The notes below the pieces were generated by a model, which saw only the letters and a program-made list of their open reading frames with translations, did not search any database and had not been told where the DNA came from. Positions 4,187-44,922 of a stretch of 64,000 nucleotides of DNA are shown here, one piece after another. Each line of letters starts with the position of its first letter. The stretch's first letter is position 1. Position numbers and translations under genes: made by a program. Source of the stretch: an uncultured bacterium (GTDB lineage Bacteria; Patescibacteriota; Minisyncoccia; Phycocordibacterales; GWA1-40-21); contig CAILDB010000003.1 of the NCBI GenBank assembly GCA_903832855.1, forward strand, positions 15,398 through 79,397, given 5' to 3'.

Positions 4187-4206
4187 TTTTGAAAATTTCT
4201 GGCTTG

Positions 4207-4246
4207 CCCCGTAGTGAACCGAGCCTTCGAGGTTCTACTACTGGGG
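4207..4246. repeat. Short copy of palindromic repeat family PR1 (CCCCGTAGTGAA...TTCTACTACTGGGG)
   Basis: Imperfect inverted repeat 21 nt upstream of the uvrB start codon. The arm sequence is shared with copies at 7732, 32646, 33287, 38496, 50710, 53678 and 60227. Confidence 0.5.
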
Positions 4247-4324
4247 TTTGACATACAAGATACGATTATGTTAGATTTTACAAGGAAATGCAAGTACACC
4301 ACAACAAGACAAAGGAGAAATGAA

Positions 4325-4960
4325 ATGGAACGCAAAGGAATAATTGGCTGGGTAAACCCTTATAAAAAGGGCGGTCCGCCTTCGGGACCAGAAAAACGTG
4401 ATGGTGAACAACCAAACGATGGGAATGTTCTGATGAATCGGTTCCTCAGAATGTCGCCATCAATGAGATTCCGGCTTACAACGAAAATGCCGGACGGCAG
4501 ACGGACAGAGCGTTGCCCAGTTCAGGAACGCATCCAGGCCAGAATCAAGAAATTCGCTTGGACAGATGTACCTGAGGAACAAACTGGCTTCCTTAACACA
4601 TTGAGCCAGTTCTTCTCGCCATGGATGATCGTGGACGGCCTTACAAAGGGTGAAGCCCGTCTGCTACACCTCATCGCCATGCACTTTCAAGGCAGGGCTA
4701 TGAGCGGGATTTATCATCCAAAGGAATGGCGATATAAGAAAGGAAAAAGGATCACTCGGGAGCAATTCATGACTGGCCTCGCAAAGTTCATGAGAAGTAT
4801 GATTGCTACAGGTGGGCTCGTATCTGAAAAGAAAGTACGCACTTACCCCAATATCGGTCTAATGTTTTCCCCCCGTGATTGGGCAACTGTAGAGAGGGTT
4901 ATCGAGGGAAAATATTTCTACCAACTCATCGAGTTCATTAATACTGGCCTCAAACACTAA
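4325..4960 (+). CDS. Hypothetical protein, in a GC-rich insert (ORF-track frame opens at 4214)
   Basis: Open frame 4214-4960. The in-frame ATG at 4325 is preceded by AGGAG at 4313-4317. The 5' part of the long ORF overlaps the PR1 hairpin, so a later start is likelier. No recognisable domain. G+C is visibly higher than in uvrB or tgt. Confidence 0.5.
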   Translation: MERKGIIGWVNPYKKGGPPSGPEKRDGEQPNDGNVLMNRFLRMSPSMRFRLTTKMPDGRRTERCPVQERIQARIKKFAWTDVPEEQTGFLNTLSQFFSPWMIVDGLTKGEARLLHLIAMHFQGRAMSGIYHPKEWRYKKGKRITREQFMTGLAKFMRSMIATGGLVSEKKVRTYPNIGLMFSPRDWATVERVIEGKYFYQLIEFINTGLKH

Positions 4961-4977
4961 ACAGTCACCAGACTGTC

Positions 4978-5010
4978 GCACCACGCAATCCAGCGTGGTG
5001 CTTTTTTATT
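4978..5010 (+). terminator. Rho-independent terminator
   Basis: GCACCACGC-aatccag-GCGTGGTGC followed by TTTTTTATT. Confidence 0.6.
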
Positions 5011-5094
5011 GCAATTGACGACAAAAATAATCGTGCTAGTATGTAAAAAGAAGGAAGAGTTCTCCTTAAACAAAGCAAAAGAAAGAAGGTGGGT

Positions 5095-5478
5095 ATGAAG
5101 AAAAAAGAGAAGGAACTGACTCCTGAGCAGAAAGTGGAATTGCTCAAGGAATTCGACGAGGCAATGAAAAAGATCGTCCTGCCCGTAGGCGTATTTTTTG
5201 CGGTAATCAGTCGCGGGCCCAAGAGTGGTATCGATAAAGGTGTAATTATTAGCGTCAGAGAACATGGCTGTTCCTGGTTGTTCACGGACATAAATCAGCA
5301 AAAAGTCCTGAAACAAGGAGGTACGAAACTACTGTTGAAGGATGCGGGTGCATTAGAAAAAAAGGCACGTGCCTCAATTCGGCGAAAATTGAAAAAAAAC
5401 GGTTCGTACGAATTTTATGGACACGGCCCAAGGTGCACTGCAGTCAGAGAGGTTCTCTTCAACACATTCAACCTCTAA
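5095..5478 (+). CDS. Hypothetical protein (GC-rich insert; ORF track starts at GTG 5089)
   Basis: 127 aa from ATG 5095 (MKKKEKELTPEQKVELLKEFDEAMKK...). Preceded by GAAGGTGG, with a candidate TTGACG...TAGTAT promoter around 5020-5050. No known domain. Confidence 0.5.
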   Translation: MKKKEKELTPEQKVELLKEFDEAMKKIVLPVGVFFAVISRGPKSGIDKGVIISVREHGCSWLFTDINQQKVLKQGGTKLLLKDAGALEKKARASIRRKLKKNGSYEFYGHGPRCTAVREVLFNTFNL

Positions 5479-5495
5479 GAGAATCGATTGTGTTT

Positions 5496-5528
5496 GGCCG
5501 TCGCGAGTACGCGACGGCCTTTTTTATT
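5496..5528 (+). terminator. Rho-independent terminator, probably bidirectional since it abuts the tgt stop
   Basis: GGCCGTCGCG-agta-CGCGACGGCC followed by TTTTTTATTTT. Confidence 0.65.
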
Positions 5529-6747
5529 TTAAATATTTCTCCAAAAAGCTTTTCTTAAATTCAAAAAATGTGCCATCAATAATTGACTGACGAATTTGTT
5601 TTACGAGATTTACGAGAAAATAAACATTGTGAATGGAGGCAAGCGTGCCAGCAAGCATTTCCTTGCCATGAAAAAGATGTGAGAGGTATGCTTTGGAATA
5701 ATTTTTGCAGGTGTAACATTCGCAATCATTTTCAATTGGAGAAATATCGGTGCGAAATTCTGTGTTCATGATATGAATTTTGCCGGTTTTTGTATAAATT
5801 GTGCCGTTTCTACCAAGTCGTGTGGGCAAAACACAATCAAAAAGATCCACGCCGTTTTCAATTCCCATAAATAAATCTTCCGGTTCACCAATTCCTAGCA
5901 AGTGCCTTGGCTTATCTTCTGGCAAAATACTATTGACCCATTTTACCGCTGTGGACATATCTTCTTTTGCAAATGAACCACCAATCCCAAATCCGTCAAA
6001 CTTTTTGCCGTCAACCTCAACTTCAGAAATAAATTTTGCCGAATCTTTTCTTAACCTCTCTTCCCTACCACCCTGCACAATTCCAAAAAGTGCAACTTTA
6101 TTTTCAGAATTTAATTTATTATGTTCTTCAAGAGACCTTCGTGCCCAATTATGAGTTCTTTCAAGTGCTTCTTCCTGATATTTCAAATCTTCTGTCGGAG
6201 ATGTGCACTCATCAAAAGCAAAAATAATATCTGCGCCAAGATTGTGTTGAATTTGAATTGATTTTTCCGGAGTAATGTAATGCACCGAGCCATCAAGATG
6301 TGATGTGAAAGAAACCCCATCCTGACCTATTTTTGCAAGCCGTGGCGCATCGGAATCGTCAAATCTTTCAGGAATTAAAAGTGATGGGTCAACAGTCTGA
6401 ACAACTTTTGAAATCCCTTTTTTGTACGCAGCGCCAAGCGAAAAAACTTGAAAGCCGCCAGAGTCGGTCATTGTGGGCCCACTCCAATTCATCATTTTTC
6501 CCAGTCCGCCCATTTTTTTGACCGCTTCATCTCCCGGCTGTAAATATAAATGATAAGTGTTCGCCAAAACAACCTGAGTCCCAGCATCTCGCACTTGTTC
6601 AGGATTGAGCGACTTCACAGTTCCCTTTGTGCCAACTACAACAAAAGCCGGCGTCTCTATCTGGCCGTGTGCCGTCTCCAAAACCCCAGCTCGCGCCAGT
6701 GTGCCTCCCCCGAGCTTGGATTGTATTGTAAATTTAAAACTTGACAT
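5524..6747 (-). CDS. tgt: Queuine tRNA-ribosyltransferase
   Basis: 407 aa. LANTYHLYLQPGD, MTDSGGFQVFSL and the zinc site CxCxxC...H (CECYTCKNYSKAYLSHL). Confidence 0.9.
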   Translation of the reverse strand: MSSFKFTIQSKLGGGTLARAGVLETAHGQIETPAFVVVGTKGTVKSLNPEQVRDAGTQVVLANTYHLYLQPGDEAVKKMGGLGKMMNWSGPTMTDSGGFQVFSLGAAYKKGISKVVQTVDPSLLIPERFDDSDAPRLAKIGQDGVSFTSHLDGSVHYITPEKSIQIQHNLGADIIFAFDECTSPTEDLKYQEEALERTHNWARRSLEEHNKLNSENKVALFGIVQGGREERLRKDSAKFISEVEVDGKKFDGFGIGGSFAKEDMSTAVKWVNSILPEDKPRHLLGIGEPEDLFMGIENGVDLFDCVLPTRLGRNGTIYTKTGKIHIMNTEFRTDISPIENDCECYTCKNYSKAYLSHLFHGKEMLAGTLASIHNVYFLVNLVKQIRQSIIDGTFFEFKKSFLEKYLK

Positions 6748-6806
6748 CTTATTTAGAAAGAATAGTATTATTTTCGGAAGAAAGCAACCAAAAAAGGAGA
6801 ACTGGA

Positions 6807-7027
6807 TGAAAAATGAAGATATTCATGAACGGTCCGTGATGCTGGCAGGTCTTCTGGTTGATGCCGAGAAACTGGTTTCCAGTATAAAGGCACAGCTGGA
6901 AATTGTGCAGGGTGAATGTACACACGAACGTGCCGAAGAATACAGAAGGCACTGGGTTGGATCTTGTCCATACTGTGGGGAAAAGTTCATGGCAAAAGAA
7001 GATGTCGATCGTATATACTCCGAATGA
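6807..7027 (+). CDS. Hypothetical small Cys-containing protein, 73 aa (GC-rich cassette)
   Basis: AAAGGAGA SD 6-7 nt before the ATG at 6807. Protein is MKNEDIHERSVMLAGLLVDAEKL...GECTHERAEEYRRHWVGSCPYCGEKF..., with a CxxH...CxxC possible metal site. Followed by its own terminator. Confidence 0.45.
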
Positions 7028-7046
7028 TCAGAAGAGGTGCAACGCG

Positions 7047-7078
7047 AGCGAGGAAAATATTTCCTCGCTCTTTTTTTA
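7047..7078 (+). terminator. Rho-independent terminator
   Basis: GAGCGAGGAA-aatat-TTCCTCGCTC followed by TTTTTTT. Confidence 0.6.
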
Positions 7079-7084
7079 TTTCGA

Positions 7085-7160
7085 CAAGCAAGGAGCAAAG
7101 TGGAAAATTCTTATTTTACATTTTGTCCGAGCGAAGTCGAAAGAAAGGGTAGGGCCCCTT
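7085..7160. repeat. Copy of GC-rich repeat module (GAGCAAAGTGGAAAATTCTTATTTTACATTTTGTCCGAGCGAAGTCGAAAG)
   Basis: Near-identical to the module inside the composite repeat at 19330-19400 (GAGCAAGGTGGAAAATCTTATTTTACATCTTGTCCGAGCGAAGTCGAAGC). Confidence 0.5.
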
Positions 7161-7654: not shown

Positions 7655-7731
7655 AATTTTAAAATACGACTATTAATAATAGTTACCAGTATATCACAAT
7701 GAAAACTTTTACAAAAGCAAATATGTTGATA

Positions 7732-7799
7732 CCCCGTAGTGAAATTTGCCATTGATTTTTAAAAAGTTGAACTTTTTGATGGCAAATTCTACTACGGGG
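7732..7799. repeat. PR1 palindromic repeat (CCCCGTAGTGAAATTTGCCAT ... ATGGCAAATTCTACTACGGGG)
   Basis: 21-bp arms form a near-perfect inverted repeat around a 26-bp spacer. The right arm is immediately followed by TGATATAAT (7801-7809) and the ATG of the next gene at 7815. Confidence 0.6.
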
Positions 7800-7814
7800 T
7801 GATATAATGTTTAT

Positions 7815-8523: not shown

Positions 8524-8683
8524 AAAGCAAAAAGGTTTTTGTAAAAAATAACCTCGTAGCAAAATGCTTTTGAATTGACTTGGGAGCGCGACGGCGCGAG
8601 CACGAGGAATTTTTTAGCAAAAAAATATCCGTGCAATTCAAAAGCTTTTTGTGGAGAGGTTTTTACAAAAACCTTTTTGCTTT
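8524..8683. repeat. Nested palindromic GC-rich repeat, family A core, filling the convergent intergenic gap
   Basis: The outer 24-bp perfect inverted repeat AAAGCAAAAAGGTTTTTGTAAAAA / TTTTTACAAAAACCTTTTTGCTTT encloses the core TTTTGAATTGACTTGGGAGCGCGACGGCGCGAGCACGAGGAATTTTTTAGCAAAAAAATATCCGTGCAATTCAAAAG. The same core is at 23349-23435 and 25838-25925. Confidence 0.55.
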
Positions 8684-16565: not shown

Positions 16566-16590
16566 AGAAAGTCAAAAAAGATAGGATCAT

Positions 16591-16628
16591 GGCCCCCGAA
16601 TGCAGCATTCGGGGGCCATTTTCTTTCC
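16591..16628 (+). terminator. Rho-independent terminator
   Basis: GGCCCCCGAatgcagcaTTCGGGGGCC followed by ATTTTCTTT. Confidence 0.6.
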
Positions 16629-16641
16629 CCCAATTTCGTGC

Positions 16642-16671
16642 TTGACAAGGCAATGCCATCTGCGGTATAAT
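16642..16671 (+). promoter_or_regulatory. Canonical sigma-70-type promoter (TTGACA-18-TATAAT)
   Basis: TTGACA at 16642-16647 and TATAAT at 16666-16671. A CAGGAGG SD lies about 10 nt before the ATG at 16719. Confidence 0.5.
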
Positions 16672-16718
16672 GCTGTCTGGGTTGTTCAACATAAACAGTT
16701 AAGTCAGGAGGTATCTAA

Positions 16719-16958
16719 ATGAGGAGAGTGTCAGACGAAACCTTGACCGCAGAAGTGAAAACTCTGTTCAAGGAAGGCAGGTCGGTGAATTGGGCGACGA
16801 AGGTGGCCTTTCATCGGCACGGGATATTCGACCGTCCGAGATTTGGAAGAATTTGTCAGGCGGTCGAAAAAGCGTTGGGGATAAGTCCCCCAGCATCACT
16901 GAAAGTCGAGCAGACCGCGCATGCCCCGTATTATTACGAAACTGGGCAATACGCCTGA
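16719..16958 (+). CDS. Hypothetical 79-aa protein (GC-rich stand-alone cassette)
   Basis: MRRVSDETLTAEVKTLFKEGRSVNWATKVAFHRHGIFDRPRFGRICQAVEKALGISPPASLKVEQTAHAPYYYETGQYA. Own promoter, SD and terminator. Markedly higher G+C than its neighbours. Confidence 0.5.
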   Translation: MRRVSDETLTAEVKTLFKEGRSVNWATKVAFHRHGIFDRPRFGRICQAVEKALGISPPASLKVEQTAHAPYYYETGQYA

Positions 16959-16978
16959 GAAGTTGACCTTCTCTAACG

Positions 16979-17008
16979 CCGAGTGCACCCGCGCTCGGCT
17001 TTTTTATT
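16979..17008 (+). terminator. Rho-independent terminator
   Basis: GCCGAGTGCAcccGCGCTCGGC followed by TTTTTTATT. Confidence 0.6.
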
Positions 17009-17195: not shown

Positions 17196-17363
17196 CAAAA
17201 ATTTGCGGAGCATAATTTTTGTGATTTTTAAACGCAAAAGTTTTTGCGTTTAAAAAGAATCGAAAGACGGAGGCCGACGGGCCGAGTCGGGGTCGCAAGA
17301 TTTTTCAGCAGAAAAATACTTGTGACCGAAAGCGTACTCGCGTTTCCGCGTAGAGTCACAAAT
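17181..17363. repeat. Direct duplication of the tRNA-Glu 3' end (TCCGCGTAGAGTCACAAA at 17181-17198 and 17345-17362) bracketing a ~150-bp GC-rich structured element (module B)
   Basis: The second copy lies 164 nt downstream of the first. The intervening GACGGAGGCCGACGGGCCGAGTCGGGGTCGCAAGATTTTTCAGCAGAAAAATACTTGTGACCGAAAG is homologous to 51130-51205 and 19290-19345. Confidence 0.5.
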
Positions 17364-17467
17364 TTAGTAACTCGTGACTACATAAATAGTTTCCATAATT
17401 TCTATTGCATTTTTTATATAAAAGAATAGTATTGAATTTAGAAGATCTTAAACACAGGAAGGATAAT

Positions 17468-17617
17468 ATGAAAAAGGTGAAGATTGTTTATCGTCTGAAG
17501 AGGTGGATAAGTGAGCCGTCAATTACTTCTTTTGGCTCAAACCAGTATTATCCAAGATGGGAGTCCGTCTTGAAAGATTTAGGATGCCTATTCACACTGG
17601 GTTTATACAAACCGTAA
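17468..17617 (+). CDS. Hypothetical 49-aa basic protein (first gene of a GC-rich two-gene cassette)
   Basis: AGGAAGG SD before the ATG at 17468. Protein is MKKVKIVYRLKRWISEPSITSFGSNQYYPRWESVLKDLGCLFTLGLYKP. The ORF-track version starts further upstream at 17405. Confidence 0.4.
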   Translation: MKKVKIVYRLKRWISEPSITSFGSNQYYPRWESVLKDLGCLFTLGLYKP

Positions 17618-17664
17618 CCGCTCTCACAGAGCGAAGAAACCCGACAAGAAAGGAAACCGTAATG

Positions 17665-17817
17665 ACAAAGCGTGATTACGCACGAAAGGCCGAACTTCTT
17701 GCCGAACTTGCTAGTCTTGAGATTAGGGATAGCGACGAGGGTAACTTCAACATAGCTGATGAGTATCTTGACAGAGCTAAGTCAGCTATCAAAAAAATGC
17801 GGGAAACGCACGAGTGA
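17665..17817 (+). CDS. Hypothetical 50-aa acidic helical protein (second gene of the cassette)
   Basis: AAAGGAAACCGTA-ATG. Protein is MTKRDYARKAELLAELASLEIRDSDEGNFNIADEYLDRAKSAIKKMRETHE, followed by a terminator. Confidence 0.4.
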   Translation, partial: TKRDYARKAELLAELASLEIRDSDEGNFNIADEYLDRAKSAIKKMRETHE

Positions 17818-17833
17818 GTATGAAAGTGAGTGC

Positions 17834-17865
17834 GAGCACATCAGCAATGGTGTGCTCTTTTTTTA
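17834..17865 (+). terminator. Rho-independent terminator
   Basis: GAGCACAtcagcaatggTGTGCTC followed by TTTTTTT. Confidence 0.6.
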
Positions 17866-19206: not shown

Positions 19207-19225
19207 AACCTAATATTACCACAAA

Positions 19226-19492
19226 AAATCTCGCAAGAAAAATTTGAAAATTTTGCTAGGGGTGGCGATCCTGTTCCTTTTGAAATACATTGCGCAGGCC
19301 GACTGGGCCGAGCATAACAAATTTTCAGCAGAATATTACTTCGACGAGCGAGGAGCAAGGTGGAAAATCTTATTTTACATCTTGTCCGAGCGAAGTCGAA
19401 GCAAGAAGATTCTTATCTTCTTATGTGCGTATTTCAAAAGGAATAGGTCGACAGGACCCCGTGAAATTTTCTAATTTTTCTTGCGAGATTTT
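19226..19492. repeat. Composite GC-rich nested-palindrome repeat (family A ends + module B + 7085-type module)
   Basis: Outer 31-bp inverted repeat AAAAATCTCGCAAGAAAAATTTGAAAATTTT / AAAATTTTCTAATTTTTCTTGCGAGATTTTT (one mismatch). Inner ends GCTAGGGGTGGCGATCCTGTTCCTTTTGAA ... AAAAGGAATAGGTCGACAGGACCCCGTGAAATTTT are shared with the 23333 and 25824 copies. Fills the ftsI-murF gap. Confidence 0.6.
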
Positions 19493-19495
19493 TAC

Positions 19496-22923: not shown

Positions 22924-23065
22924 AGTGCAACACAAAGTTATCCACAGGGTACCTTGCCCTGTTTTATGTGTCAGATTTGGTGTTATTGACTAAAAAAATA
23001 TTAAGTATAATATACCTATCGGATGTTAAATGACCGTTAATTGACTAAACAAAAAGAGGCGAGAA

Positions 23066-23224
23066 ATGATAGCTAACCCTGTACCTGTTGAAACGATACC
23101 TATGTGGTGGCTTATAGGACGGTGGATCATGTTGATCGTTGTTCTTTTCGCACTAGCAATTGTAGCCTGCTTTATCTACTGCATGCGCAAATTCGAGAAG
23201 GAAAAGGAACAAGGCAAATCATGA
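23066..23224 (+). CDS. Hypothetical 52-aa single-TM protein (below the ORF-track length cutoff)
   Basis: ATG at 23066. Protein is MIANPVPVETIPMWWLIGRWIMLIVVLFALAIVACFIYCMRKFEKEKEQGKS. Terminator downstream. G+C higher than flanks. Confidence 0.4.
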   Translation: MIANPVPVETIPMWWLIGRWIMLIVVLFALAIVACFIYCMRKFEKEKEQGKS

Positions 23225-23254
23225 GATGAAATCACAATCAAACAAGACAGTAGT

Positions 23255-23292
23255 CCTCGTTCGGAATTTCCGAGCGAGGGCTTTTTTTATCA
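23255..23292 (+). terminator. Rho-independent terminator
   Basis: CCTCGTTCGGaatttCCGAGCGAGG followed by GCTTTTTTTAT. Confidence 0.55.
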
Positions 23293-23303: not shown

Positions 23304-23481
23304 ACACAAAATTAAGAGACTGAAAATTTTGTTAGGGGTGGCGATCCTGTTCCTTTTGAACTGACTTGGGAGGCTGACTGAGCCGAGCACGAGGAATTTT
23401 TTAGCAAAAAAATATCCGTGCAGTTCAAAAGGAATAGGTCGACAGGACCCCGTGAAATTTTCAGTCTTTTAATTTTGTGTC
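23304..23481. repeat. Composite nested-palindrome repeat, family A
   Basis: Outer inverted repeat ACACAAAATTAAGAGACTGAAAATTTT / AAAATTTTCAGTCTTTTAATTTTGTGT. Inner sequence GTTAGGGGTGGCGATCCTGTTCCTTTTGAACTGACTTGGGAGGCTGACTGAGCCGAGCACGAGGAATTTTTTAGCAAAAAAATATCCGTGCAGTTCAAAAGGAATAGGTCGACAGGACCCCGTGAAATTTT. Confidence 0.6.
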
Positions 23482-25423: not shown

Positions 25424-25554
25424 AATATTATTGGTTAATTATTAAAGTGCCACCATTCTACCAAACTATGGGTTGATAGTCAAAATTTTGCATAAAAAAA
25501 ACGACCCGAACCCCATTACAGGATCCAGGTCGTAGATCGTGTTGTCGGCGAGAA

Positions 25555-25698
25555 TTACTTCGCCTGCCAGCAGATCGTTCCCGAGTTCTTCATACAGAAT
25601 TCTGTCATCTTGTAGCTCTGAGGGTCTGAAACCAAGTGCCACACGATGACTGTGAGAAGAATCGCAGAAACCGACATACAAATAATCAACCTTTTCAT
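25555..25698 (-). CDS. Candidate 47-aa hydrophobic peptide with perfect AGGAGG SD (alternative: overlapping 93-aa ORF 25466..25747)
   Basis: AGGAGG lies 7 nt before the ATG at 25698. Protein is MKRLIICMSVSAILLTVIVWHLVSDPQSYKMTEFCMKNSGTICWQAK. It overlaps, in another frame, the 93-aa ORF listed in the track. The region is GC-rich. Confidence 0.35.
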   Translation of the reverse strand: MKRLIICMSVSAILLTVIVWHLVSDPQSYKMTEFCMKNSGTICWQAK

Positions 25699-25805
25699 CT
25701 TCAATCCTCCTAACTACTAGTATACACCCTTTCGTATCTTTTGTCAAGCATTTTTACATTTTCTTTTTATAAGTCCAAAAATAGCTTGCAAAATAAGGCT
25801 TTTTG

Positions 25806-25958
25806 CCAAAAATTTTGTTAGGGGTGGCGATCCTGTTCCTTTTGAACTGACTTGGGAGCGCGACTGGCGCGAGCACGAGGAATTTTTTAGCAAAAAAATA
25901 TCCGTGCAGTTCAAAAGGAATAGGTCGACAGGACCCCGTGAAATTTTTCGGCTGAAAA
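25806..25958. repeat. Composite nested-palindrome repeat, family A
   Basis: GTTAGGGGTGGCGATCCTGTTCCTTTTGAACTGACTTGGGAGCGCGACTGGCGCGAGCACGAGGAATTTTTTAGCAAAAAAATATCCGTGCAGTTCAAAAGGAATAGGTCGACAGGACCCCGTGAAATTTTT, about 95% identical to the 23333 copy, with short flanking inverted repeats. Confidence 0.6.
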
Positions 25959-31012: not shown

Positions 31013-31128
31013 AATATGTGAATATTACATTAAAATTTAATAAAAACAAACACTTGACCTAAAATGATAAGTATGCTAGTTTAATTTAGGATAGAAGGTA
31101 CAACAACAACACTAAAAGGAGACTTGAT

Positions 31129-31461
31129 ATGCATGATCATCACAAATGGGCAAATCTGACATTTGCACGAATGCAAATAATGGAGAACATTATAGCGGTG
31201 ATATTCCTGTTTACAGGGATAATCCGTGAATATCATCTGGGCCATTTCGCCTACCATACGCATTCAAAGCTGGGACTTTTCTGTGACTATATGGAAAAAG
31301 TGGCAGAAAATGACGGGCTTTGGAACGCGCTTGAGAAAAAAAGAAAAAAACTGATGGGAGCGAAAAAACTCATCATTTACGAGATATCAGCGTTTAACAC
31401 CGTCTTCGCAAGGCAAAAGTTGAGAAGGGTTCTCAACCAATGCAAGACAAAACATCAGTGA
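31129..31461 (+). CDS. Hypothetical 110-aa protein (GC-enriched stand-alone cassette)
   Basis: AAAGGAGAC SD before the ATG. Protein is MHDHHKWANLTFARMQIMENIIAVIFLF.... Terminator follows. Confidence 0.45.
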   Translation: MHDHHKWANLTFARMQIMENIIAVIFLFTGIIREYHLGHFAYHTHSKLGLFCDYMEKVAENDGLWNALEKKRKKLMGAKKLIIYEISAFNTVFARQKLRRVLNQCKTKHQ

Positions 31462-31477
31462 GATTCTGTTCTCACAC

Positions 31478-31510
31478 CCGCGCCCCACAAGGCGCGGTTT
31501 TATTTTGCTG
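31478..31510 (+). terminator. Rho-independent terminator
   Basis: CCGCGCCccacaaGGCGCGG followed by TTTTATTTT. Confidence 0.55.
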
Positions 31511-32630: not shown

Positions 32631-32645
32631 TTAGATATTCTATCA

Positions 32646-32716
32646 CCCCGTAGTGAATTTTGCCATCAGGTTTTCAGAAAAACCCAATGTTTTCAAATGG
32701 CAAAATCTACTACAGG
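32646..32716. repeat. PR1 palindromic repeat (CCCCGTAGTGAATTTTGCCAT ... ATGGCAAAATCTACTACAGGG)
   Basis: 21-bp inverted arms. On the rseP strand the arm is followed by TGATAGAAT and then the rseP ATG about 15 nt on. Confidence 0.6.
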
Positions 32717-32734
32717 GTATCAAAAAAACTGAAA

Positions 32735-33454: not shown

Positions 33455-33500
33455 CGAAAAGAGTAAAAGAAAAAGGGCTCGCTGTCATGATGACTAGCGA
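33455..33500 (-). terminator. Rho-independent terminator (minus strand)
   Basis: On the minus strand, GGGCTCGCTagtcatcatgacAGCGAGCCC followed by TTTTTC, just after the 33526 stop. Confidence 0.55.
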
Positions 33501-33525
33501 GCCCGGTACCGGCAGAAATGCCACA

Positions 33526-33936
33526 CTACTTGATTGGGCTTTGGGAGGTGAGGATTTTGTCGTAAATGCACTCGCCTCCAGTCGGGTTTTTGAACTCAAC
33601 AAACTTCCTCACAACGATGTATATTCCACCGTTTGTAACCAAGTTGTCGCCTGCCAAACTAAAAAGTCTGGGCGGGCAAATTATTGCAGGAATACCAGGT
33701 GCCTTGAGAAAGGCGTAACGCCTGTCCGAAACCATGATGATTCCCACAACCTCGTTAGTAGTACCTACCACGAGGTTCTCGTTGTAGTTCGGATAGCCGA
33801 GGGCTTCGGCTTTTCCAAAAGCTCTACCAGAATCAAAACCCTTAAGAGGCAGTAAGAATCCAATAGCAATCAAAACTACAATTACTACGACGAGCATTAT
33901 CAATCCAATCGCCGTAATTCCACTTTTCATTTTCAT
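33526..33936 (-). CDS. Hypothetical secreted or membrane-anchored protein (GC-rich cassette)
   Basis: 136 aa. AAGGAGAAG SD. N-terminal hydrophobic anchor MKMKSGITAIGLIMLVVVIVVLIAIGFLL. No known domain. G+C higher than its neighbours frr and holB. Confidence 0.5.
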   Translation of the reverse strand: MKMKSGITAIGLIMLVVVIVVLIAIGFLLPLKGFDSGRAFGKAEALGYPNYNENLVVGTTNEVVGIIMVSDRRYAFLKAPGIPAIICPPRLFSLAGDNLVTNGGIYIVVRKFVEFKNPTGGECIYDKILTSQSPIK

Positions 33937-34064
33937 AAAGAACTTCTCCTTATTTTCTATTTAGTTCGTCTGAAGGACCGCCTTCAGATTCTGAATTTAC
34001 TATATCAAGAACATCCTTAAGAGTAAAGCTCGCCAATGGCAAGGTCTGACCTTGCCATTAAATT

Positions 34065-34930: not shown

Positions 34931-34962
34931 AAAAAAGAGCCCCGACCAGAGCGTCGGGCTCT
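34929..34962 (-). terminator. Rho-independent terminator (minus strand) for the 34998..35183 gene
   Basis: Minus strand reads AGAGCCCGACgctctgGTCGGGGCTC followed by TTTTTTTT. Confidence 0.5.
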
Positions 34963-34997
34963 TTGTCGGGGATCACTTCCAATAATCACGATAACTC

Positions 34998-35183
34998 TCA
35001 ATACCGATACTCGCGTATTGCCGAGTTATCACAATCAAGGCACTTACGCCGACTTCGCACGACTCTCCCCAACCTCATCGGATGTGTGCCTCTTCTGCTT
35101 GATGGCAACGAACCCGTGCGCCATCTTACATTAATACACTTTTCACATAGTGCCATTCGTCTTACCTTGACCTTTTTAGCCAT
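34998..35183 (-). CDS. Hypothetical 61-aa basic zinc-ribbon protein (GC-rich)
   Basis: GGAG SD before the ATG at 35183. Protein is MAKKVKVRRMALCEKCINVRWRTGSLPSSRRGTHPMRLGRVVRSRRKCLDCDNSAIREYRY, with CxxC...CxxC. It does not align convincingly to L28, L33 or S14. Confidence 0.45.
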   Translation of the reverse strand: MAKKVKVRRMALCEKCINVRWRTGSLPSSRRGTHPMRLGRVVRSRRKCLDCDNSAIREYRY

Positions 35184-35250
35184 AAGAACACTCCTTTCTT
35201 TTCTCCTAAAAAATACTAGCACAATCAAGTCATAGCAACAAGCGAATGAG

Positions 35251-40545: not shown

Positions 40546-40573
40546 TTGACAAGTTTAGTCAGAAATGTATAAT
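40546..40573 (+). promoter_or_regulatory. Canonical sigma-70-type promoter (TTGACA-16-TATAAT)
   Basis: TTGACA at 40546-40551 and TATAAT at 40568-40573. AAAAGGAGGT SD before the ATG at 40612. Confidence 0.5.
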
Positions 40574-40611
40574 TTTATTGGATGTAAATAGTAAACAAAA
40601 GGAGGTACACA

Positions 40612-40866
40612 ATGCCAATTCTAGGCGTAAAGATAGTAATAGTTCCAGATCAAGAAAACGGAATAGTGAAAATCATAAATGATCATCCAGGTTCGCAGTC
40701 TATGATATACAACCATATCTTGATCATCTATGATGATGGTACTTTCAAACTCATAGCAGCAATAGCGAAATCTTTCGGGCAGCATGGGGCCCGCACAATT
40801 GCTCTGGGAGTATCGTATGGTCTGCCGATTGAAACCGATCCAGACTTCTACAAAAAACTCAAGTAA
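40612..40866 (+). CDS. Hypothetical 84-aa protein (stand-alone cassette)
   Basis: MPILGVKIVIVPDQENGIVKIINDHPGSQSMIYNHILIIYDDGTFKLIAAIAKSFGQHGARTIALGVSYGLPIETDPDFYKKLK. Own promoter and terminator. Confidence 0.5.
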   Translation: MPILGVKIVIVPDQENGIVKIINDHPGSQSMIYNHILIIYDDGTFKLIAAIAKSFGQHGARTIALGVSYGLPIETDPDFYKKLK

Positions 40867-40870
40867 GCTA

Positions 40871-40920
40871 CCCACCAACGGGAAGGAAAATTCATCCTTC
40901 TGTGCGGTGGGTTTTTCTTT
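40871..40920 (+). terminator. Rho-independent terminator
   Basis: CCCACCaacgGGAAGGAaaattcaTCCTTCtgtgcGGTGGG followed by TTTTTCTTTT. Confidence 0.55.
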
Positions 40921-40955
40921 TGCAAAAATTTTGCTAAATAAAATAAACGAGCCAG

Positions 40956-41115: not shown

Positions 41116-41155
41116 TGGCGAGTTTTTATTTAACAAAATTTTTGTAAAAGAAAAC

Positions 41156-41977: not shown

Positions 41978-41983
41978 TAAAAA

Positions 41984-43264
41984 TTAGGACTTTTTTCCGA
42001 TGTATTCTGCACCCCCCATATATTTTCTCAAAACCTCCGGAATCTTAATACTTCCGTCTTCTTGCTGATTATTTTCTACAATCTGAATAAGAATTCTCGG
42101 AGTTGCAAGCGCAGTATTATTGAGTGAGTGAGCAAATTTCATTTTTCCATCATCGTCTTTGTATCTGGTATTTAATCTTCTGCATTGGAAATCATGGAAA
42201 TACGAGCAGGAATGCGTCTCACCATATTTATTTTGAGATGGACGCCAAACCTCCACATCATACTTTTTCACCTGACCAAGCCCGAGATCTCCTCCACAAT
42301 TTGCAACCACATGATAAGGCAAATTTAAAGCTTGCAAAAGTTCTTCAACGTTCGAAAGAAGCTCTTCGTGAAGTGCAACGCTTTTTTCATGGCTTGCTTC
42401 ACACCATATTACTTGCTCAAATTTATAAAATTCGTGAAGTCTGTAAAGCCCCTTGACATCCTTGCTATAACTGCCCGCCTCCCTTCTGAAACACGGCGAA
42501 AATGCGAGTTTTTTGATAGGTAAATCTTTCTTGTCAAGTACCTTGTCAGCATTGTAGCTCATAGTCGCCACTTCGGCAGTTCCGGCAAGATAATCATTGT
42601 CTTGAGTCTTGTACAAATCATCCTCCCCCTGTGGCAAATATCCAGTTCCCAGAAGTGTTTCTCTACGCACGAGTGATGGCACAAACAAAAGCTTGTATTC
42701 ACTTTTCTTTTCTCTGAAAAAGTCCATCACAAATTGCCAAAGCGCAAATTCCATAAGTGCACCTTCGTTTTTCAAAAAGTATCCACGGAATCCGGCAACC
42801 TTTGCGCCAATTTCAAAATCCGCCAAATCCAATTTCTCCATCAGTTCAATATGATCTTTTGGTCTGTAAGTAAAATTTGGCTTCTCACCCCAAGCACGCA
42901 CTTCCACATTATCCGCGTCGCTATCGCCTTCTGGCACAGACATATCTGGAATATTTGGAACCTGAAGCATAAGAGCTTGCCAAACTTTCATAACTTCCTT
43001 CATTTTTTCTTCTTCTTTTTGAAGCTCATCTTTCAGAAGCTTCATATCTTCAAGTAGATTTTTCTTTTCTAGGGCGTCCTTCATAGAAGGTAATCTCTTG
43101 CTTGCTTCATTTTGTTTTGCTCTTTTTTCTTCAACCAAAAGTGTAAGAGCTTTTCTCTCATCATCGGCTTTAATAAGCGCCTCCACATCAAACTTCAAAT
43201 GCTTTTTCTTTGCACCCTCCGCAATCAACTCTTTATTTTCTCGTATAAATTTTATATCTAACAT
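41984..43264 (-). CDS. serS: Seryl-tRNA synthetase
   Basis: 426 aa. N-terminal coiled-coil arm and class II core. Confidence 0.95.
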   Translation of the reverse strand: MLDIKFIRENKELIAEGAKKKHLKFDVEALIKADDERKALTLLVEEKRAKQNEASKRLPSMKDALEKKNLLEDMKLLKDELQKEEEKMKEVMKVWQALMLQVPNIPDMSVPEGDSDADNVEVRAWGEKPNFTYRPKDHIELMEKLDLADFEIGAKVAGFRGYFLKNEGALMEFALWQFVMDFFREKKSEYKLLFVPSLVRRETLLGTGYLPQGEDDLYKTQDNDYLAGTAEVATMSYNADKVLDKKDLPIKKLAFSPCFRREAGSYSKDVKGLYRLHEFYKFEQVIWCEASHEKSVALHEELLSNVEELLQALNLPYHVVANCGGDLGLGQVKKYDVEVWRPSQNKYGETHSCSYFHDFQCRRLNTRYKDDDGKMKFAHSLNNTALATPRILIQIVENNQQEDGSIKIPEVLRKYMGGAEYIGKKS

Positions 43265-43315
43265 AATTCATATATTATCAAGAAAATACAAAATAGACAA
43301 CTCTTTTGCACATAT

Positions 43316-43344
43316 TTGACTTTTGATAAAATACCGAATAATAT
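43316..43344 (+). promoter_or_regulatory. Candidate sigma-70-type promoter (TTGACT-17-TAATAT) driving the 16S-like element
   Basis: TTGACT at 43316-43321, 17-nt spacer, TAATAT at 43339-43344. Confidence 0.4.
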
Positions 43345-43350
43345 AACATT

Positions 43351-43558
43351 AGGCACAAACTGGGAAATAGATGAGCAATACGCGAGTTATCTTCGGTAGG
43401 CATCAGCTACGGCCGAAAAGGAGCTCTCGTCCCATCAGCTTGTTGGCGAGGTAATGGCTCACCAAGGCTCACGGGTAGCTAGCGCGAGAGGGTCGCTGGC
43501 CATGCAGTTTGCGCTTAGCTCCGTTCCAATGTAATGTTGGGCGGAGCGCCTTTTTTTT
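43351..43558 (+). ncRNA. Putative ~210-nt small RNA whose body mimics 16S rRNA (E. coli positions ~180-310, helices h8-h12), with its own intrinsic terminator
   Basis: CCCATCAGCTTGTTGGCGAGGTAATGGCTCACCAAGGCTCACGGGTAGCTAGCGCGAGAGGGTCGCTGGCCAT compares with the bacterial 16S consensus GATTAGCTAGTTGGTGAGGTAATGGCTCACCAAGGCGACGATCCGTAGCTGGTCTGAGAGGATGATCAGCC. Ends in GCGCT..CCG/CGGAGCGCC followed by TTTTTTTT (43509-43558). Intergenic between serS and dprA. Confidence 0.35.
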
Positions 43559-43600
43559 ATTTCTACTTTTCATAAAAATAATATATAATCATTTGCAGAT

Positions 43601-44476
43601 ATGTCATTAAAAGATTTTGAAGTTTATACAATTAAGAAGGCAGAGATGCCCGAATTGCTTCAGGAAATTCCGGATTGCCCGGAAAAACTTTTTGTTCAGG
43701 GTAAGATGCCGGGACCAGAAACCAAATTGCTTTGTGTTGTTGGCTCTCGCAAATTCACACCATACGGAAAAGAGGCCTGCGAGAAGCTTATCTCTGGTCT
43801 TCGCGGATATGACATTACTATTGTTTCTGGACTTGCAATGGGAATTGACGGTATTGCACATCAAGCAGCACTTTCTGCAGGACTAAAAACTATCGCAGTT
43901 CCGGGTTCAGGACTTTCAGAAAAAGTTTTATCACCACGAACAAATATTCCTATTGCAAATAAAATTTTGGAATCAGGTGGTGCGATGCTTTCCGAATTTG
44001 AAATGGATTTCATCGCCACACCATATAGCTTTCCACAAAGAAACAGAATTATGGCGGGGCTTTCTCACGCCACACTTGTCATAGAAGCGGAAATAAAATC
44101 TGGCACACTCATCACTTCCAAATACGCGACAGAATACAACAGAGATGTCTTTACTGTGCCAGGCTCAATTTTTTCAAAAAATTCTGATGGCCCAAACATG
44201 CTTATCAGACTTGGTGCGACACCCATTCGCACAAGTTCAGATATTTTGGAAGCCCTTGGCTTCAAAACAGATGAGGAACCGCAAAATCTTACGCTGAAAT
44301 ATTCTGATTGCTCACCCGAAGAATTACTTGTAGTTGAAATTCTGCAAAATCCAATGTCAAAAGACGACCTCGTCAGAAAAATGAAAATGCCAATTTCACA
44401 AGCGAGTGCTGTAATTTCAATAATGGAAATAAAAGGATTGCTCGAAGAAAGTATGGGAGAAATGCGTTTGATTTAA
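43601..44476 (+). CDS. dprA: DNA processing protein DprA/Smf
   Basis: 291 aa. Rossmann-like DprA core (VVGSRKFTPYGKEACEKLISGLRGYDITIVSGLAMGIDGIAHQAAL) and C-terminal winged helix. Confidence 0.85.
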   Translation: MSLKDFEVYTIKKAEMPELLQEIPDCPEKLFVQGKMPGPETKLLCVVGSRKFTPYGKEACEKLISGLRGYDITIVSGLAMGIDGIAHQAALSAGLKTIAVPGSGLSEKVLSPRTNIPIANKILESGGAMLSEFEMDFIATPYSFPQRNRIMAGLSHATLVIEAEIKSGTLITSKYATEYNRDVFTVPGSIFSKNSDGPNMLIRLGATPIRTSSDILEALGFKTDEEPQNLTLKYSDCSPEELLVVEILQNPMSKDDLVRKMKMPISQASAVISIMEIKGLLEESMGEMRLI

Positions 44477-44481
44477 ATTTC

Positions 44482-44509
44482 TTGACTTTATTTTCATAAG
44501 TAGTATAGT
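44482..44509 (+). promoter_or_regulatory. Canonical sigma-70-type promoter (TTGACT-16-TATAGT)
   Basis: TTGACT at 44482-44487 and TATAGT at 44504-44509. AAAAAGGAGAAG SD before the ATG at 44552. Confidence 0.5.
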
Positions 44510-44551
44510 TTTCAGGTACTGTTCTAGGAAACCGAGAAAAAAGGAGAAGTT

Positions 44552-44815
44552 ATGTCTAGGCGTCATGGATATGGTGAAAAGCCGAAAGTCAAAGGACGGG
44601 AGAACATGTCCAAAAGAGAAATAACGAGGTACGAGAACAAGGTCGTCTTGGTCGCTGGACAGGAAGTCATGTATGCGACCGAAAAGAAGACCGGGACCGT
44701 GGCTTCTGTGGAAGCAACCGCGTGCAATCTCGCGCTTGAAAAAAGCGGGTTTGTCGCCGTCTCGTTCGATGACGGACAACTGTGGATCGAACACGATAAA
44801 CTTGCGGCGATCTGA
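44552..44815 (+). CDS. Hypothetical 87-aa protein (GC-rich stand-alone cassette)
   Basis: MSRRHGYGEKPKVKGRENMSKREITRYENKVVLVAGQEVMYATEKKTGTVASVEATACNLALEKSGFVAVSFDDGQLWIEHDKLAAI. Own promoter and terminator. Confidence 0.5.
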   Translation: MSRRHGYGEKPKVKGRENMSKREITRYENKVVLVAGQEVMYATEKKTGTVASVEATACNLALEKSGFVAVSFDDGQLWIEHDKLAAI

Positions 44816-44835
44816 AATAGCGATCGACCAAACCC

Positions 44836-44866
44836 CCGGCGCATGTAATTGCGCCGGTTTTTTTTG
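44836..44866 (+). terminator. Rho-independent terminator
   Basis: CCGGCGCatgtaattGCGCCGG followed by TTTTTTTT. Confidence 0.55.
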
Positions 44867-44922
44867 TAAAAAATAAAAAAAAATTTGCAACAAATGATAT
44901 TTGTGTGTAATACTATACATTA

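What the first reader, a model, noticed from the sequence alone, without database searches (positions are those of the whole stretch)
4200..44872. Population of short GC-rich stand-alone expression cassettes (E. coli-like promoter + SD + small ORF + intrinsic terminator) scattered among AT-rich core genes
At least twelve loci carry small unknown ORFs whose G+C is visibly far above that of flanking housekeeping genes: 4325-4960, 5095-5478, 6807-7027, 16719-16958, 17468-17817 (two ORFs), 23066-23224, 25555-25698, 31129-31461, 33526-33936, 34998-35183, 40612-40866 and 44552-44815. Several have textbook TTGACA-N16-18-TATAAT promoters (16642, 40546, 44482). They carry strong AGGAGG-type SD sequences that the core genes largely lack, and clean stem-loop plus T-run terminators. 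Nearly all abut one of the structured repeat families. This is not how an integron, prophage or genomic island usually looks. It resembles many independent micro-insertions of self-contained small genes, possibly hitch-hiking with the repeats. The products include basic zinc-ribbon, single-TM and acidic helical peptides. Their functions are unknown; TA modules, phage-defence accessories or symbiosis factors are speculative candidates.
Basis: partly seen in the sequence, partly recalled or inferred. Interest (0 to 1): 0.6.

Follow-up and report, generated by a model that had tools for sequence, protein, structure and literature searches.

The report
Stand-alone small-gene cassettes in a Paceibacteria chromosome
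An AT-rich, gene-dense chromosome of an uncultured ultra-small (CPR/Paceibacteria) bacterium carries about a dozen G+C-richer orphan genes between its housekeeping genes, each with its own promoter, ribosome-binding site and terminator, whereas the housekeeping genes use no ribosome-binding site at all.

Summary
The window is a Paceibacteria (Patescibacteria/CPR) chromosome with 37.6% G+C. All 13 small ORFs have third-position G+C of 0.40-0.65. All 50 core genes lie at 0.18-0.37, with no overlap. Each unit has a sigma-70-type promoter, a 13-60 nt leader, a strong Shine-Dalgarno (SD) site and an intrinsic terminator. No core gene start has a strong SD site, and 14 of 48 have a -10 box 5-10 nt before the ATG, which suggests leaderless mRNAs. 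Core gene order is conserved in relatives, but the cassette positions are empty there (6-69 bp) or hold unrelated SD-led orphan genes. Two cassettes (c01, c05a) have orthologues under strong purifying selection (dN/dS 0.04-0.14), so they encode real proteins and are not recent arrivals. c01 keeps its high G+C although synonymous sites are saturated. None matches Pfam, PHROGs, PADLOC, NCBIfam, phage, plasmid or viral collections. The link to repeats holds for about half and has no fixed geometry. Best reading: accessory small-protein genes built like phage morons, inserted singly into a rigid chromosome. Their function and source are unknown.

The parts
4248..5010 (+). Cassette c01. Promoter TTGACA-N18-TAGATT at 4248-4277, SD AAGGAGA, ORF 4325-4960 (211 aa, basic), terminator 4978-5001 plus T-run.
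   Evidence: An orthologue (P0009, on L169) gives dN/dS 0.135 overall and 0.076 in the core domain, with dS 1.3-1.5. GC3 is 0.505.
5015..5528 (+). Cassette c02. Promoter TTGACG-N16-TAGTAT at 5015-5042, SD GAAGGTGGGT, ORF 5095-5478 (127 aa), terminator 5496-5519.
   Evidence: The promoter, leader and first ~18 codons are conserved in L169, but the rest of the ORF is unrelated there. GC3 is 0.50.
6741..7078 (+). Cassette c03. Promoter at 6741-6768, SD AAGGAGA, ORF 6806-7027 (73 aa, acidic, with one CPYC motif), terminator 7046-7070.
   Evidence: An independent gene caller called it as a gene.
16589..17008 (+). Cassette c04. Upstream hairpin 16589-16619, perfect promoter 16642-16671, SD AGGAGGT, ORF 16719-16958 (79 aa), terminator 16978-16999.
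   Evidence: It has the highest G+C (0.525; GC3 0.575). In strain contig L008 a Bro-N-domain gene replaces YqeY upstream, and the junction falls exactly at the hairpin.
17372..17865 (+). Cassette c05, with two ORFs. c05a is 17468-17617 (49 aa, SD AGGAAGGA). c05b is 17662-17817 (51 aa, acidic, helical, SD AAGGAAA). One terminator at 17834-17857. The promoter is uncertain (best match 8/12).
   Evidence: c05a has a syntenic orthologue in L025 with pS 0.63, pN 0.05 and a conserved stop codon.
22986..23290 (+). Cassette c06. Promoter TTGACT-N16-TAATAT, SD AAGAGG, ORF 23066-23224 (52 aa, single transmembrane segment), terminator 23252-23282.
   Evidence: It is absent from the nearest species, where the MraZ-AspRS gap is 264 bp with no ORF. 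Support comes from sequence signals only.
25493..25747 (-). Cassette c07. Promoter 25747-25719 (11/12), SD AGGAGGA, ORF 25698-25555 (47 aa, single transmembrane segment), terminator 25533-25501.
   Evidence: The PBP-GreA gap is 69 bp in the nearest species (L170) and 537 bp here. The GreA promoter is retained in both.
31037..31505 (+). Cassette c08. Promoter 31037-31065 (9/12), SD AAGGAGA, ORF 31129-31461 (110 aa), terminator 31478-31497.
   Evidence: In L170 the same junction holds an unrelated SD-led 56-aa ORF on the same relative strand.
33465..34027 (-). Cassette c09. Promoter 34027-33999, SD AAGGAGA, ORF 33936-33526 (136 aa, N-terminal transmembrane anchor), terminator about 33504-33465.
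   Evidence: The RRF-HolB gap is 778 bp here, against a median of 45 bp in 55 relatives and 31-72 bp in the four nearest. The locus is the same in all 16 contigs read.
34931..35241 (-). Cassette c10. Weak extended -10 promoter at about 35241-35213 (by eye), SD AAGGAG, ORF 35183-34998 (61 aa, pI 11.3, two CxxC motifs), terminator 34958-34941.
   Evidence: The HolB-MreB gap is 6 bp in L170, and 1111 bp with different genes in L171. Support comes from sequence signals only.
40546..40920 (+). Cassette c11. Perfect promoter 40546-40573, SD AAGGAGGT, ORF 40612-40866 (84 aa), terminator about 40871-40920.
   Evidence: The exact protein occurs on 60 contigs.
44482..44866 (+). Cassette c12. Promoter TTGACT-N16-TATAGT at 44482-44509, SD AAGGAGA, ORF 44552-44815 (87 aa), terminator 44836-44857.
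   Evidence: GC3 is 0.59. The locus, between dprA and topA, is the same in all 19 contigs read.
53859..56240 (+). ORFs 53933-55183 (416 aa) and 55180-56187 (335 aa, four transmembrane-like segments), both SD-led, G+C 0.47, with a terminator after 56187.
   Evidence: x14 has 11 homologues in 1.8 billion representatives, and some of these weakly match the SPFH/Band 7 domain.

Best explanation
These are real accessory small-protein genes found only in this lineage. Each is an insulated, autonomous expression unit with a sigma-70-type -35/-10 promoter, a 13-60 nt leader carrying a strong SD site, a short ORF and a Rho-independent terminator. They were added one at a time into junctions between transcription units of a Paceibacteria chromosome whose core gene order is otherwise rigid.

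They are built and placed like phage 'morons': extra DNA between genes that are adjacent in relatives, with its own promoter and terminator and a deviant composition. Here they sit in a cellular chromosome.

They use SD-led translation initiation. The core genes do not: many appear to be leaderless, and none has an SD site.

Shown: the sequence signals, the compositional separation, the empty or differently filled sites in relatives, and purifying selection on c01 and c05a.

Inferred: that the promoters and SD sites work in vivo; that most units arrived by horizontal transfer from an unidentified pool, plausibly by natural transformation or phage; and that the products act at the cell envelope or on nucleic acids. 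The products include single-transmembrane peptides, a basic zinc-ribbon protein and basic or acidic helical proteins.
For: Composition: GC3 separates completely from the 50 core genes.

Signals: 13 of 13 units have a promoter, an SD site and a terminator. The SD contrast has p=1.3e-7. 14 of 48 core starts have a -10 box 5-10 nt upstream, against 4.4% of background ATGs (p=1e-8). None of the cassettes has one.

Empty or differently filled sites: L009/L170, L171 and L173. Gap statistics over 38-72 relatives show that the RRF-HolB and HolB-MreB junctions are normally tight, while YqeY-MurF, MraZ-AspRS, GreA-PBP and ProRS-RseP vary across the clade.

Coding: c01 has dN/dS 0.135, or 0.076 in its core domain; c05a has 0.04. 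Independent gene callers call most of the units.

Clade-wide pattern: in 108 related loci, large ORFs carry SD sites at the background rate (4.2% against 2.9%), while small intergenic ORFs are enriched (8.0%, odds ratio 2.9, p=1.5e-17).

Regulatory DNA: the c01 and c02 promoter, leader and terminator sequences are about 90% conserved against L169, where coding DNA is 78% identical and synonymous sites are saturated.

Literature: moron definition (PMC3594210); frequent horizontal transfer and competence genes in Patescibacteria (PMC12455944). dprA lies in the window.
Against: No donor was found. There is no match in Pfam, PHROGs, PADLOC, NCBIfam, IMG/VR, INPHARED or PLSDB.

I saw no insertion scars in the one junction I read base by base, and no integrase or transposase turned up in the window.

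c01 and c05a are as old as their neighbours. c01 keeps GC3 at 0.50-0.59 in both lineages at dS of about 1.3-1.5. That is not the decaying signature of a recent import.

Some SD-led ORFs filling these positions in relatives have host-like G+C, for example 0.30 in L170.

All contexts within the species are fixed.

Gain rather than loss is inferred by parsimony from only a few near relatives.

c06, c07 and c10 rest on sequence signals alone.

The organism's 16S 3' end was not available. The anti-SD motif was detected in only 48% of Parcubacteria 16S genes (PMC9297842).
Confidence: 0.6

Rival explanations
1. The units form a native, vertically inherited class of small regulated genes. Their higher G+C and SD-led leaders reflect how this class is expressed, or GC-biased gene conversion in recombining junctions, and not a foreign origin. 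Absence from relatives reflects loss during genome streamlining.
For: c01 and c05a have the same synonymous divergence as flanking core genes and lie in syntenic positions. c01 holds a stable GC3 of 0.50-0.59 in two lineages. SD-led small ORFs occur across the clade, some with host-like G+C. Loci are fixed within the species. No donor was found.
Against: c06, c07, c09 and c10 are missing from the nearest species. c09 is missing from all four near relatives, where the gaps are 31-72 bp. The same junctions hold unrelated cargo in different species. No homologue of any other cassette was found in 168 related loci.
Confidence: 0.25
2. The units are remnants or cargo of phages or other mobile elements (true morons, satellite fragments) that recombined into the chromosome.
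For: The architecture matches the moron definition (PMC3594210). One strain has a Bro-N-domain gene next to c04. Prophages and islands are reported in Patescibacteria (PMC12455944). Several products are small membrane proteins, as is the HK97 gp15 moron product (PMC3594210).
Against: No phage hallmark gene or integrase turned up in the window. PHROGs gave no hit. Eight viral-contig scans and an INPHARED tblastn search were negative. The units are scattered singly over 40 kb of housekeeping genes, not clustered.
Confidence: 0.08
3. Some or all of the ORFs are chance reading frames in G+C-rich non-coding DNA such as structured RNAs or repeat elements. Stop codons are A+T-rich, so G+C-rich DNA yields longer chance ORFs.
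For: The G+C-rich 'ORF' at 53240-53602 turned out to be the RNase P RNA gene. A G+C-rich 16S-like fragment lies at 43371-43503. c06, c07 and c10 have no comparative support and gene callers often skipped them.
Against: All 13 units combine an SD site at the correct spacing, an ATG and a terminator just after the stop. No other SD-led intergenic ORFs exist in the window. c01 and c05a are under purifying selection. None overlaps an Rfam match.
Confidence: 0.04
4. The genes arose de novo from pre-existing intergenic DNA or repeats.
For: They are orphan genes, short and mostly basic. The end of one repeat copy overlaps the putative c10 promoter.
Against: The homologous junctions in relatives are only 6-70 bp long, so the DNA itself is new, not just the ORF. 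Intergenic DNA elsewhere is A+T-rich, whereas the cassettes are G+C-rich. The expression signals are complete and strong.
Confidence: 0.03

Closest known systems
Phage morons (HK97/HK022; Juhala et al. 2000; reviewed in PMC3594210)
   Same: Both are extra DNA between genes that are adjacent in relatives. Both have their own promoter and intrinsic terminator, a G+C content that differs from the neighbours, and usually one small ORF, often a membrane protein.
   Different: These units lie in a cellular chromosome among housekeeping genes, not in a phage or prophage. At least two are anciently resident. No horizontal spread among genomes was demonstrated.
Lineage-restricted orphan (ORFan) genes of bacteria (PMC11293555, PMC12315717)
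   Same: Both are short, lack homologues outside the species or genus, show signs of purifying selection and have unknown function.
   Different: Orphan genes normally match their genome's G+C and GC3 (rho 0.96 in PMC11293555). Here GC3 does not overlap the core at all, and the translation-initiation signals differ from those of the core genes.
SD-independent translation with a few SD-bearing genes (Bacteroidota; the Parcubacteria subgroup lacking the anti-SD motif, PMC9297842; leaderless-rich Actinobacteria, PMC3898074)
   Same: The core genes lack SD sites, and many carry a -10 box right before the ATG, as in leaderless mRNAs.
   Different: Here the SD-bearing minority coincides with the accessory, G+C-rich orphan genes. 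I found no report of leaderless genes in Parcubacteria in the searchable library.
Integron gene cassettes
   Same: Both are small, mostly single-ORF units of unrelated function, and neighbouring units can sit in tandem (c01-c02).
   Different: Integron cassettes lack promoters, end in attC sites and cluster next to an integrase. These units have their own promoters and terminators, are dispersed, and have no integrase nearby.
Type I toxin-like or small membrane-protein genes
   Same: c06 and c07 are 47-52 aa single-transmembrane peptides in intergenic DNA with strong signals.
   Different: No antisense RNA or repeat structure was identified, and no family match was found. The resemblance rests on size and hydrophobicity only.

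Membership tests
Phage moron | Inserted between two genes that are adjacent in related genomes | tested here: met
   c07, c09 and c10: 69, 31 and 6 bp in L170 against 537, 778 and 643 bp here.
Phage moron | Own promoter and factor-independent terminator | tested here: met
   Met by sequence only: 13 of 13 units. No expression data are available.
Phage moron | Nucleotide composition differs from the flanking genes | tested here: met
   GC3 is 0.40-0.65 against 0.18-0.37.
Phage moron | Resides in a phage or prophage genome | tested here: not met
   The flanking genes are UvrB, TGT, LeuRS, MurF, PBPs, AspRS, GreA, RseP, RRF, HolB, DprA and TopA. There are no PHROG or viral matches.
Integron cassette | attC recombination site, promoterless ORF, array next to an intI integrase | tested here: not met
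   Each unit has its own promoter. The units are dispersed. No integrase appears among the genes called. attC sites were not searched with a model.
Type II toxin-antitoxin module | Bicistronic pair of small genes from known toxin and antitoxin families | tested here: not met
   Pfam, NCBIfam and PADLOC gave no hits. c01 and c02 are separate transcription units. Only c05a-c05b is bicistronic, and in L025 c05a stands alone.
Type I toxin | Small hydrophobic peptide plus an overlapping antisense RNA | tested here: inconclusive
   c06 and c07 are single-transmembrane peptides. I did not search for an antisense promoter or RNA.
Anti-phage defence system | Match to a known defence protein model | tested here: not met
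   PADLOC returned 0 families for 10 proteins.
Prophage or genomic island | Contiguous block with an integrase or hallmark genes, often next to a tRNA gene | tested here: not met
   The units are single genes spread over 40 kb. Only c04 and c05 flank a tRNA gene (tRNA-Glu), and that arrangement is syntenic in L025.
Lineage-restricted orphan gene | No homologue outside close relatives | tested here: met
   c01 has a single homologue in 5.8 billion proteins. The 90% clusters have 1-2 members. There are no hits in 168 related loci except for c05a. The other cassettes were not searched individually against the large protein database.
Leaderless or SD-independent core translation | No SD site at core starts; -10 box 5-10 nt before the start codon | tested here: met
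   by sequence only. Transcription start sites are not known.
SD-led initiation of the cassettes | An anti-SD sequence (CCUCC) at the 3' end of the organism's 16S rRNA | not testable with these tools
   There is no 16S gene in the window or in any fetched locus. The motif was found in only 48% of Parcubacteria 16S genes (PMC9297842).

The most novel reading that the evidence does not exclude
This Paceibacteria lineage runs two separate expression regimes. The streamlined core is A+T-rich and translated without SD sites, largely from leaderless mRNAs. A replaceable set of orphan small-protein genes occupies intergenic positions as insulated promoter-SD-ORF-terminator modules. The composition of these modules is actively held away from the genome's mutational equilibrium: c01 keeps GC3 above 0.5 at saturated synonymous divergence. 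On this reading the SD/anti-SD interaction is kept mainly as a dedicated channel for the accessory pool. The positions behave like chromosomal counterparts of moron sites, exchanging cargo behind conserved regulatory scaffolds, as in c02.
Probability: 0.2. Interest if true: 0.75.

Novelty: new variant of a known kind. Interest (0 to 1): 0.55.

Why it matters
CPR/Patescibacteria genomes are small and syntenic, and much of their gene content has no assigned function. Their lineage-specific small proteins are prime candidates for host attachment, phage exclusion and other functions tied to a symbiotic lifestyle.

The accessory genes here can be recognised by a simple, checkable signature: an SD-led leader, their own promoter and terminator, and raised GC3, set against an SD-less, leaderless core. 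That gives a practical way to list them in thousands of metagenome-assembled genomes and to correct gene calls, since several were missed by gene callers.

It also bears on why some Parcubacteria keep or lose the anti-SD sequence. And it poses a concrete puzzle in molecular evolution: what keeps a resident gene at GC3 of about 0.55 in a genome whose core sits at 0.30?

Tried and rejected
1. A concatenated query of all 12 proteins to the search for homologous proteins returned nothing, not even the identical sequences. That search was wasted.

2. I first read 17513-17628 as a conserved non-coding RNA because it is 83-88% identical to L025. I rejected this. The differences are about 14 synonymous against 4 non-synonymous, and the stop codon is conserved, so c05a codes for a protein.

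3. AlphaFold2 models of c12 and c01 had mean pLDDT of 46 and 36. They are unusable, so I ran no fold search.

4. Pfam, PHROGs, PADLOC, NCBIfam and PDB sequence searches gave no significant hit.

5. Eight viral-contig scans and tblastn against INPHARED phages and PLSDB plasmids found nothing.

6. The metagenome-contig scan with RseP returned only distant relatives (55% identity or less). It served for gap statistics but not for cassette orthology.

7. Searches for a 16S 3' end in the fetched loci, to check the anti-SD sequence, found none.

8. The recent-import model was rejected for c01 and c05a.

9. I looked for a target-site duplication around c09 and saw none.

10. Across relatives, the G+C of SD-led small ORFs tracks host G+C with a slope of 0.56, against 0.81 for ORFs without SD sites. 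This hints at a shared pool but is not decisive.

Full report
**What the window is**

The core ORFs encode UvrB, tRNA-guanine transglycosylase, LeuRS, RmuC, YqeY, MurF, two PBPs, MraZ/RsmH/FtsL, AspRS, GreA, MreBCD-type proteins, ProRS, RseP, RRF, HolB, SerRS, DprA, TopA, RelA/SpoT and ribosomal proteins.

A genome scan with MurF places the window in Patescibacteria, class Paceibacteria/Minisyncoccia. The nearest reference genome is JBAVTE01, with 78% amino-acid identity in MurF. All others are at 64% or less.

The same sequence, at 99.4-100% identity, recurs on dozens of contigs from independent metagenome assemblies. It is therefore not an assembly artefact.

**Checking the observation**

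Composition:
- Overall G+C is 0.376.
- The 50 core genes have G+C of 0.365 +/- 0.027 and GC3 of 0.297 +/- 0.047, with a maximum of 0.370.
- The 13 small ORFs have GC3 of 0.40-0.65. The separation from the core is complete (p=3.6e-8).

Promoters:
- Two are perfect 12/12 matches (16642 and 40546).
- The promoter at 44482 scores 10/12.
- The rest score 8-11/12.

Terminators:
- Every unit ends in a hairpin plus T-run 15-45 nt after the stop codon.
- These are among the strongest terminator-like sites in the region.

**The contrast in translation signals**

The sharpest contrast is in translation-initiation signals.
- All cassette starts have an SD site, with a median duplex energy of -8.5 kcal/mol.
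- The 47 core starts have none, with a median of +0.4 (p=1.3e-7).
- 14 of 48 core starts carry a -10 box with at least 5/6 matches, ending 5-10 nt before the ATG. Seven of these are perfect TATAAT. The background rate at other ATGs is 4.4% (p=1e-8). This is the signature of leaderless mRNAs.
- A scan of the whole window found no other SD-led intergenic ORFs except the operon at 53933-56187. That operon has the same G+C (0.47), so it belongs to the same class.

The claim about repeats is only half right. About 6-7 of the 12 units lie next to a repeat copy. Repeat copies also occur alone. In both pairs c06/c07 and c10/c11 the cassette lies on the same side of a directly oriented repeat copy but in opposite orientations.

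**Are they genes?**

c01:
- It has one homologue among 5.8 billion proteins (P0009). The homologue lies on a contig (L169) whose histidine kinase and response regulator are about 78% identical in DNA to those in the window.
- For c01, dN/dS is 0.135 with dS 1.5. For the adjacent kinase, dN/dS is 0.105 with dS 1.4.
- In the conserved central domain of c01, pN is 0.09, pS is 0.61 and dN/dS is 0.076.

c05a:
- It has a syntenic orthologue in L025, a species whose MurF is only 61% identical.
- pN is 0.05, pS is 0.63, and the stop codon is conserved.

Both genes are therefore under strong purifying selection. Both have been resident as long as their neighbours.

The other units are supported by their signals and by independent gene calls. 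None overlaps an Rfam hit. That control matters, because the G+C-rich 'ORF' at 53240-53602 proved to be the RNase P RNA gene.

**Are they insertions?**

Core gene order is conserved across the class. RRF-HolB is adjacent in 55 loci with a median gap of 45 bp. MurF-PBP has a median gap of 21 bp.

The nearest species (L009/L170) reads: MreB, 6 bp, HolB, 31 bp, RRF, 104 bp, RseP, a 56-aa SD-led ORF on the opposite strand, ProRS ... PBP, 69 bp, GreA, AspRS, 264 bp, MraZ.
- c10, c09, c07 and c06 are therefore absent there.
- The c08 position holds an unrelated orphan gene.

Other relatives:
- L171 has a 53-aa ORF and a 199-aa ORF in the c10 position, and 31 bp in the c09 position.
- L173 has 72 bp in the c09 position.
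- L025 keeps the YqeY, tRNA-Glu, repeat, c05a, MurF framework. It has unrelated 88-aa and 78-aa ORFs where c04 sits.
- Several junctions vary across the clade: YqeY-MurF, MraZ-AspRS, GreA-PBP and ProRS-RseP.

Within the species the cassettes are fixed at one locus. There is one exception. In strain contig L008 a Bro-N-domain gene replaces YqeY upstream of c04, and the junction falls exactly at hairpin 16589-16619.

**Features of the scaffold**

Against L169, the c01 promoter and leader, the c01 terminator, and the c02 promoter and leader are about 90% identical. Coding DNA is 78% identical and synonymous sites are saturated.

The c02 ORF itself becomes unrelated after about 18 codons. The regulatory scaffold is kept while the cargo differs.

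In L169, UvrB does not lie between the kinase and c01. The homology between the two sequences starts about 10 nt upstream of the -35 element.

**The wider clade**

In 108 related loci, large ORFs carry SD sites at the background rate (4.2% against 2.9%). Small intergenic ORFs are enriched (8.0%, odds ratio 2.9, p=1.5e-17).

The dichotomy is therefore a trait of the lineage. This genome has roughly five times more such units per kb than its relatives (about one per 5 kb against about one per 25 kb, by my estimate).

In A+T-rich relatives the SD-led small ORFs average 0.057 above host G+C. In G+C-rich relatives they average 0.04 below it. This is suggestive of a shared pool, but not decisive.

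The literature fits in part. The anti-SD motif was detected in only 48% of Parcubacteria 16S genes (PMC9297842). No paper in the searchable library pairs Parcubacteria with leaderless genes.

**Origin and function**

None of the cassette proteins matched any family or collection searched:
- Pfam, PHROGs, PADLOC, NCBIfam and PDB sequences.
- IMG/VR, for eight proteins.
- INPHARED phages and PLSDB plasmids.

The cassette proteins are also unrelated to each other. Structure predictions failed, with pLDDT of 36-46.

The products include:
- three single-transmembrane proteins (c06, c07, c09);
- a very basic protein with two CxxC motifs (c10);
- acidic helical peptides (c03, c05b);
- basic soluble proteins.

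**Interpretation**

The best reading is moron-like chromosomal cassettes. They are accessory orphan small-protein genes, added singly into transcription-unit boundaries, insulated by terminators, and expressed through SD-led leaders in a genome whose core does not use SD sites.

A foreign origin is plausible for most of them. It is not shown. c01 contradicts the simple picture of a recent import undergoing amelioration, because its GC3 stays at 0.50-0.59 in both lineages despite saturated synonymous sites. This remains unexplained. Selection on the mRNA or on codons, GC-biased gene conversion in recombining junctions, and repeated replacement from a diverged pool are all open.

The main rival is a native, vertically inherited gene class with differential loss. 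The rivals of chance ORFs, phage remnants and de novo birth are each disfavoured by specific tests, set out above.

**Verdict**

This is a new variant of known kinds (morons and orphan accessory genes). The added point of real interest is the coincidence of the accessory/core split with the split between SD-led and leaderless translation, and with a maintained difference in composition.

Noticed in passing
window 53255-53628 (-): RNase P RNA, class A (RF00010): 92.7 bits, just under the gathering score of 100, E=9e-29, full-length match. The G+C-rich 'ORF' 53240-53602 is this RNA, not a protein.
   Followed up: yes
window 43371-43503 (+): An isolated 133-nt fragment of bacterial 16S rRNA (RF00177 model positions 106-311, 52.6 bits, E=2e-14, G+C 0.57) lies in the spacer upstream of dprA, far from any rRNA operon. 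It could be a scrap of a pseudogene, a scrap of foreign DNA, or a binding-site mimic for a ribosomal protein.
   Followed up: partly
window 53859-56240 (+): A two-gene, SD-led operon with G+C 0.47. x14 (416 aa) has only 11 homologues in 1.8 billion representatives, and several of these weakly match the SPFH/Band 7 domain. x15 has four transmembrane-like segments. Compositionally it belongs with the small cassettes.
   Followed up: partly
core gene starts throughout the window, e.g. 771, 2062, 7815, 11300, 16055, 32630, 61044: A -10 box (often a perfect TATAAT) ends 5-10 nt before the ATG at 14 of 48 core genes. Operon-internal genes have A-rich upstream regions with no SD site. The core therefore appears to be leaderless or SD-independent.
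   Followed up: yes
window 19224-19493; L002 4380-4560: Strain contig L002 departs from the window exactly inside a repeat copy and continues with FtsK and EF-P in place of the PBP operon. The repeats therefore mark rearrangement breakpoints between strains.
   Followed up: partly
window 23305-23479, 25809-25947, 19224-19493, 8567-8683; 17257-17330 and 51130-51203: About 160-nt palindromic repeats lie directly after the stop codons of core genes, and a related element follows tRNA-Glu and tRNA-Trp. Their central parts are 79-89% identical to sequences in distant Paceibacteria (L093, L152, L101; L153, L021, L033). This suggests a conserved structured element or a MITE that spreads between lineages.
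   Followed up: partly
window 7726-7808, 32637-32723, 60218-60252, 4196-4215: The palindromic motif CACTACGGGGTG / CCCCGTAGTG sits immediately upstream of the -10 box of several leaderless core genes (7815, 31512). It may be an operator or a promoter-associated repeat.
   Followed up: no
L008 3-656 and window 16589-16619: One strain carries a Bro-N-domain gene with host-like G+C (GC3 0.28) upstream of c04 in place of YqeY. The junction is exactly at the hairpin that precedes the c04 promoter.
   Followed up: partly
window 5095-5478 vs L169 3525-3707: The c02 promoter, leader and first ~18 codons are conserved between the two species, but the rest of the ORF is unrelated. This looks like a cargo swap behind a conserved regulatory scaffold.
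   Followed up: partly
window 2096-4186 vs L169 2737-2772: UvrB lies between the histidine kinase and c01 in the window but not in the related contig L169. A core repair gene has therefore moved, or been inserted, at the cassette boundary.
   Followed up: no
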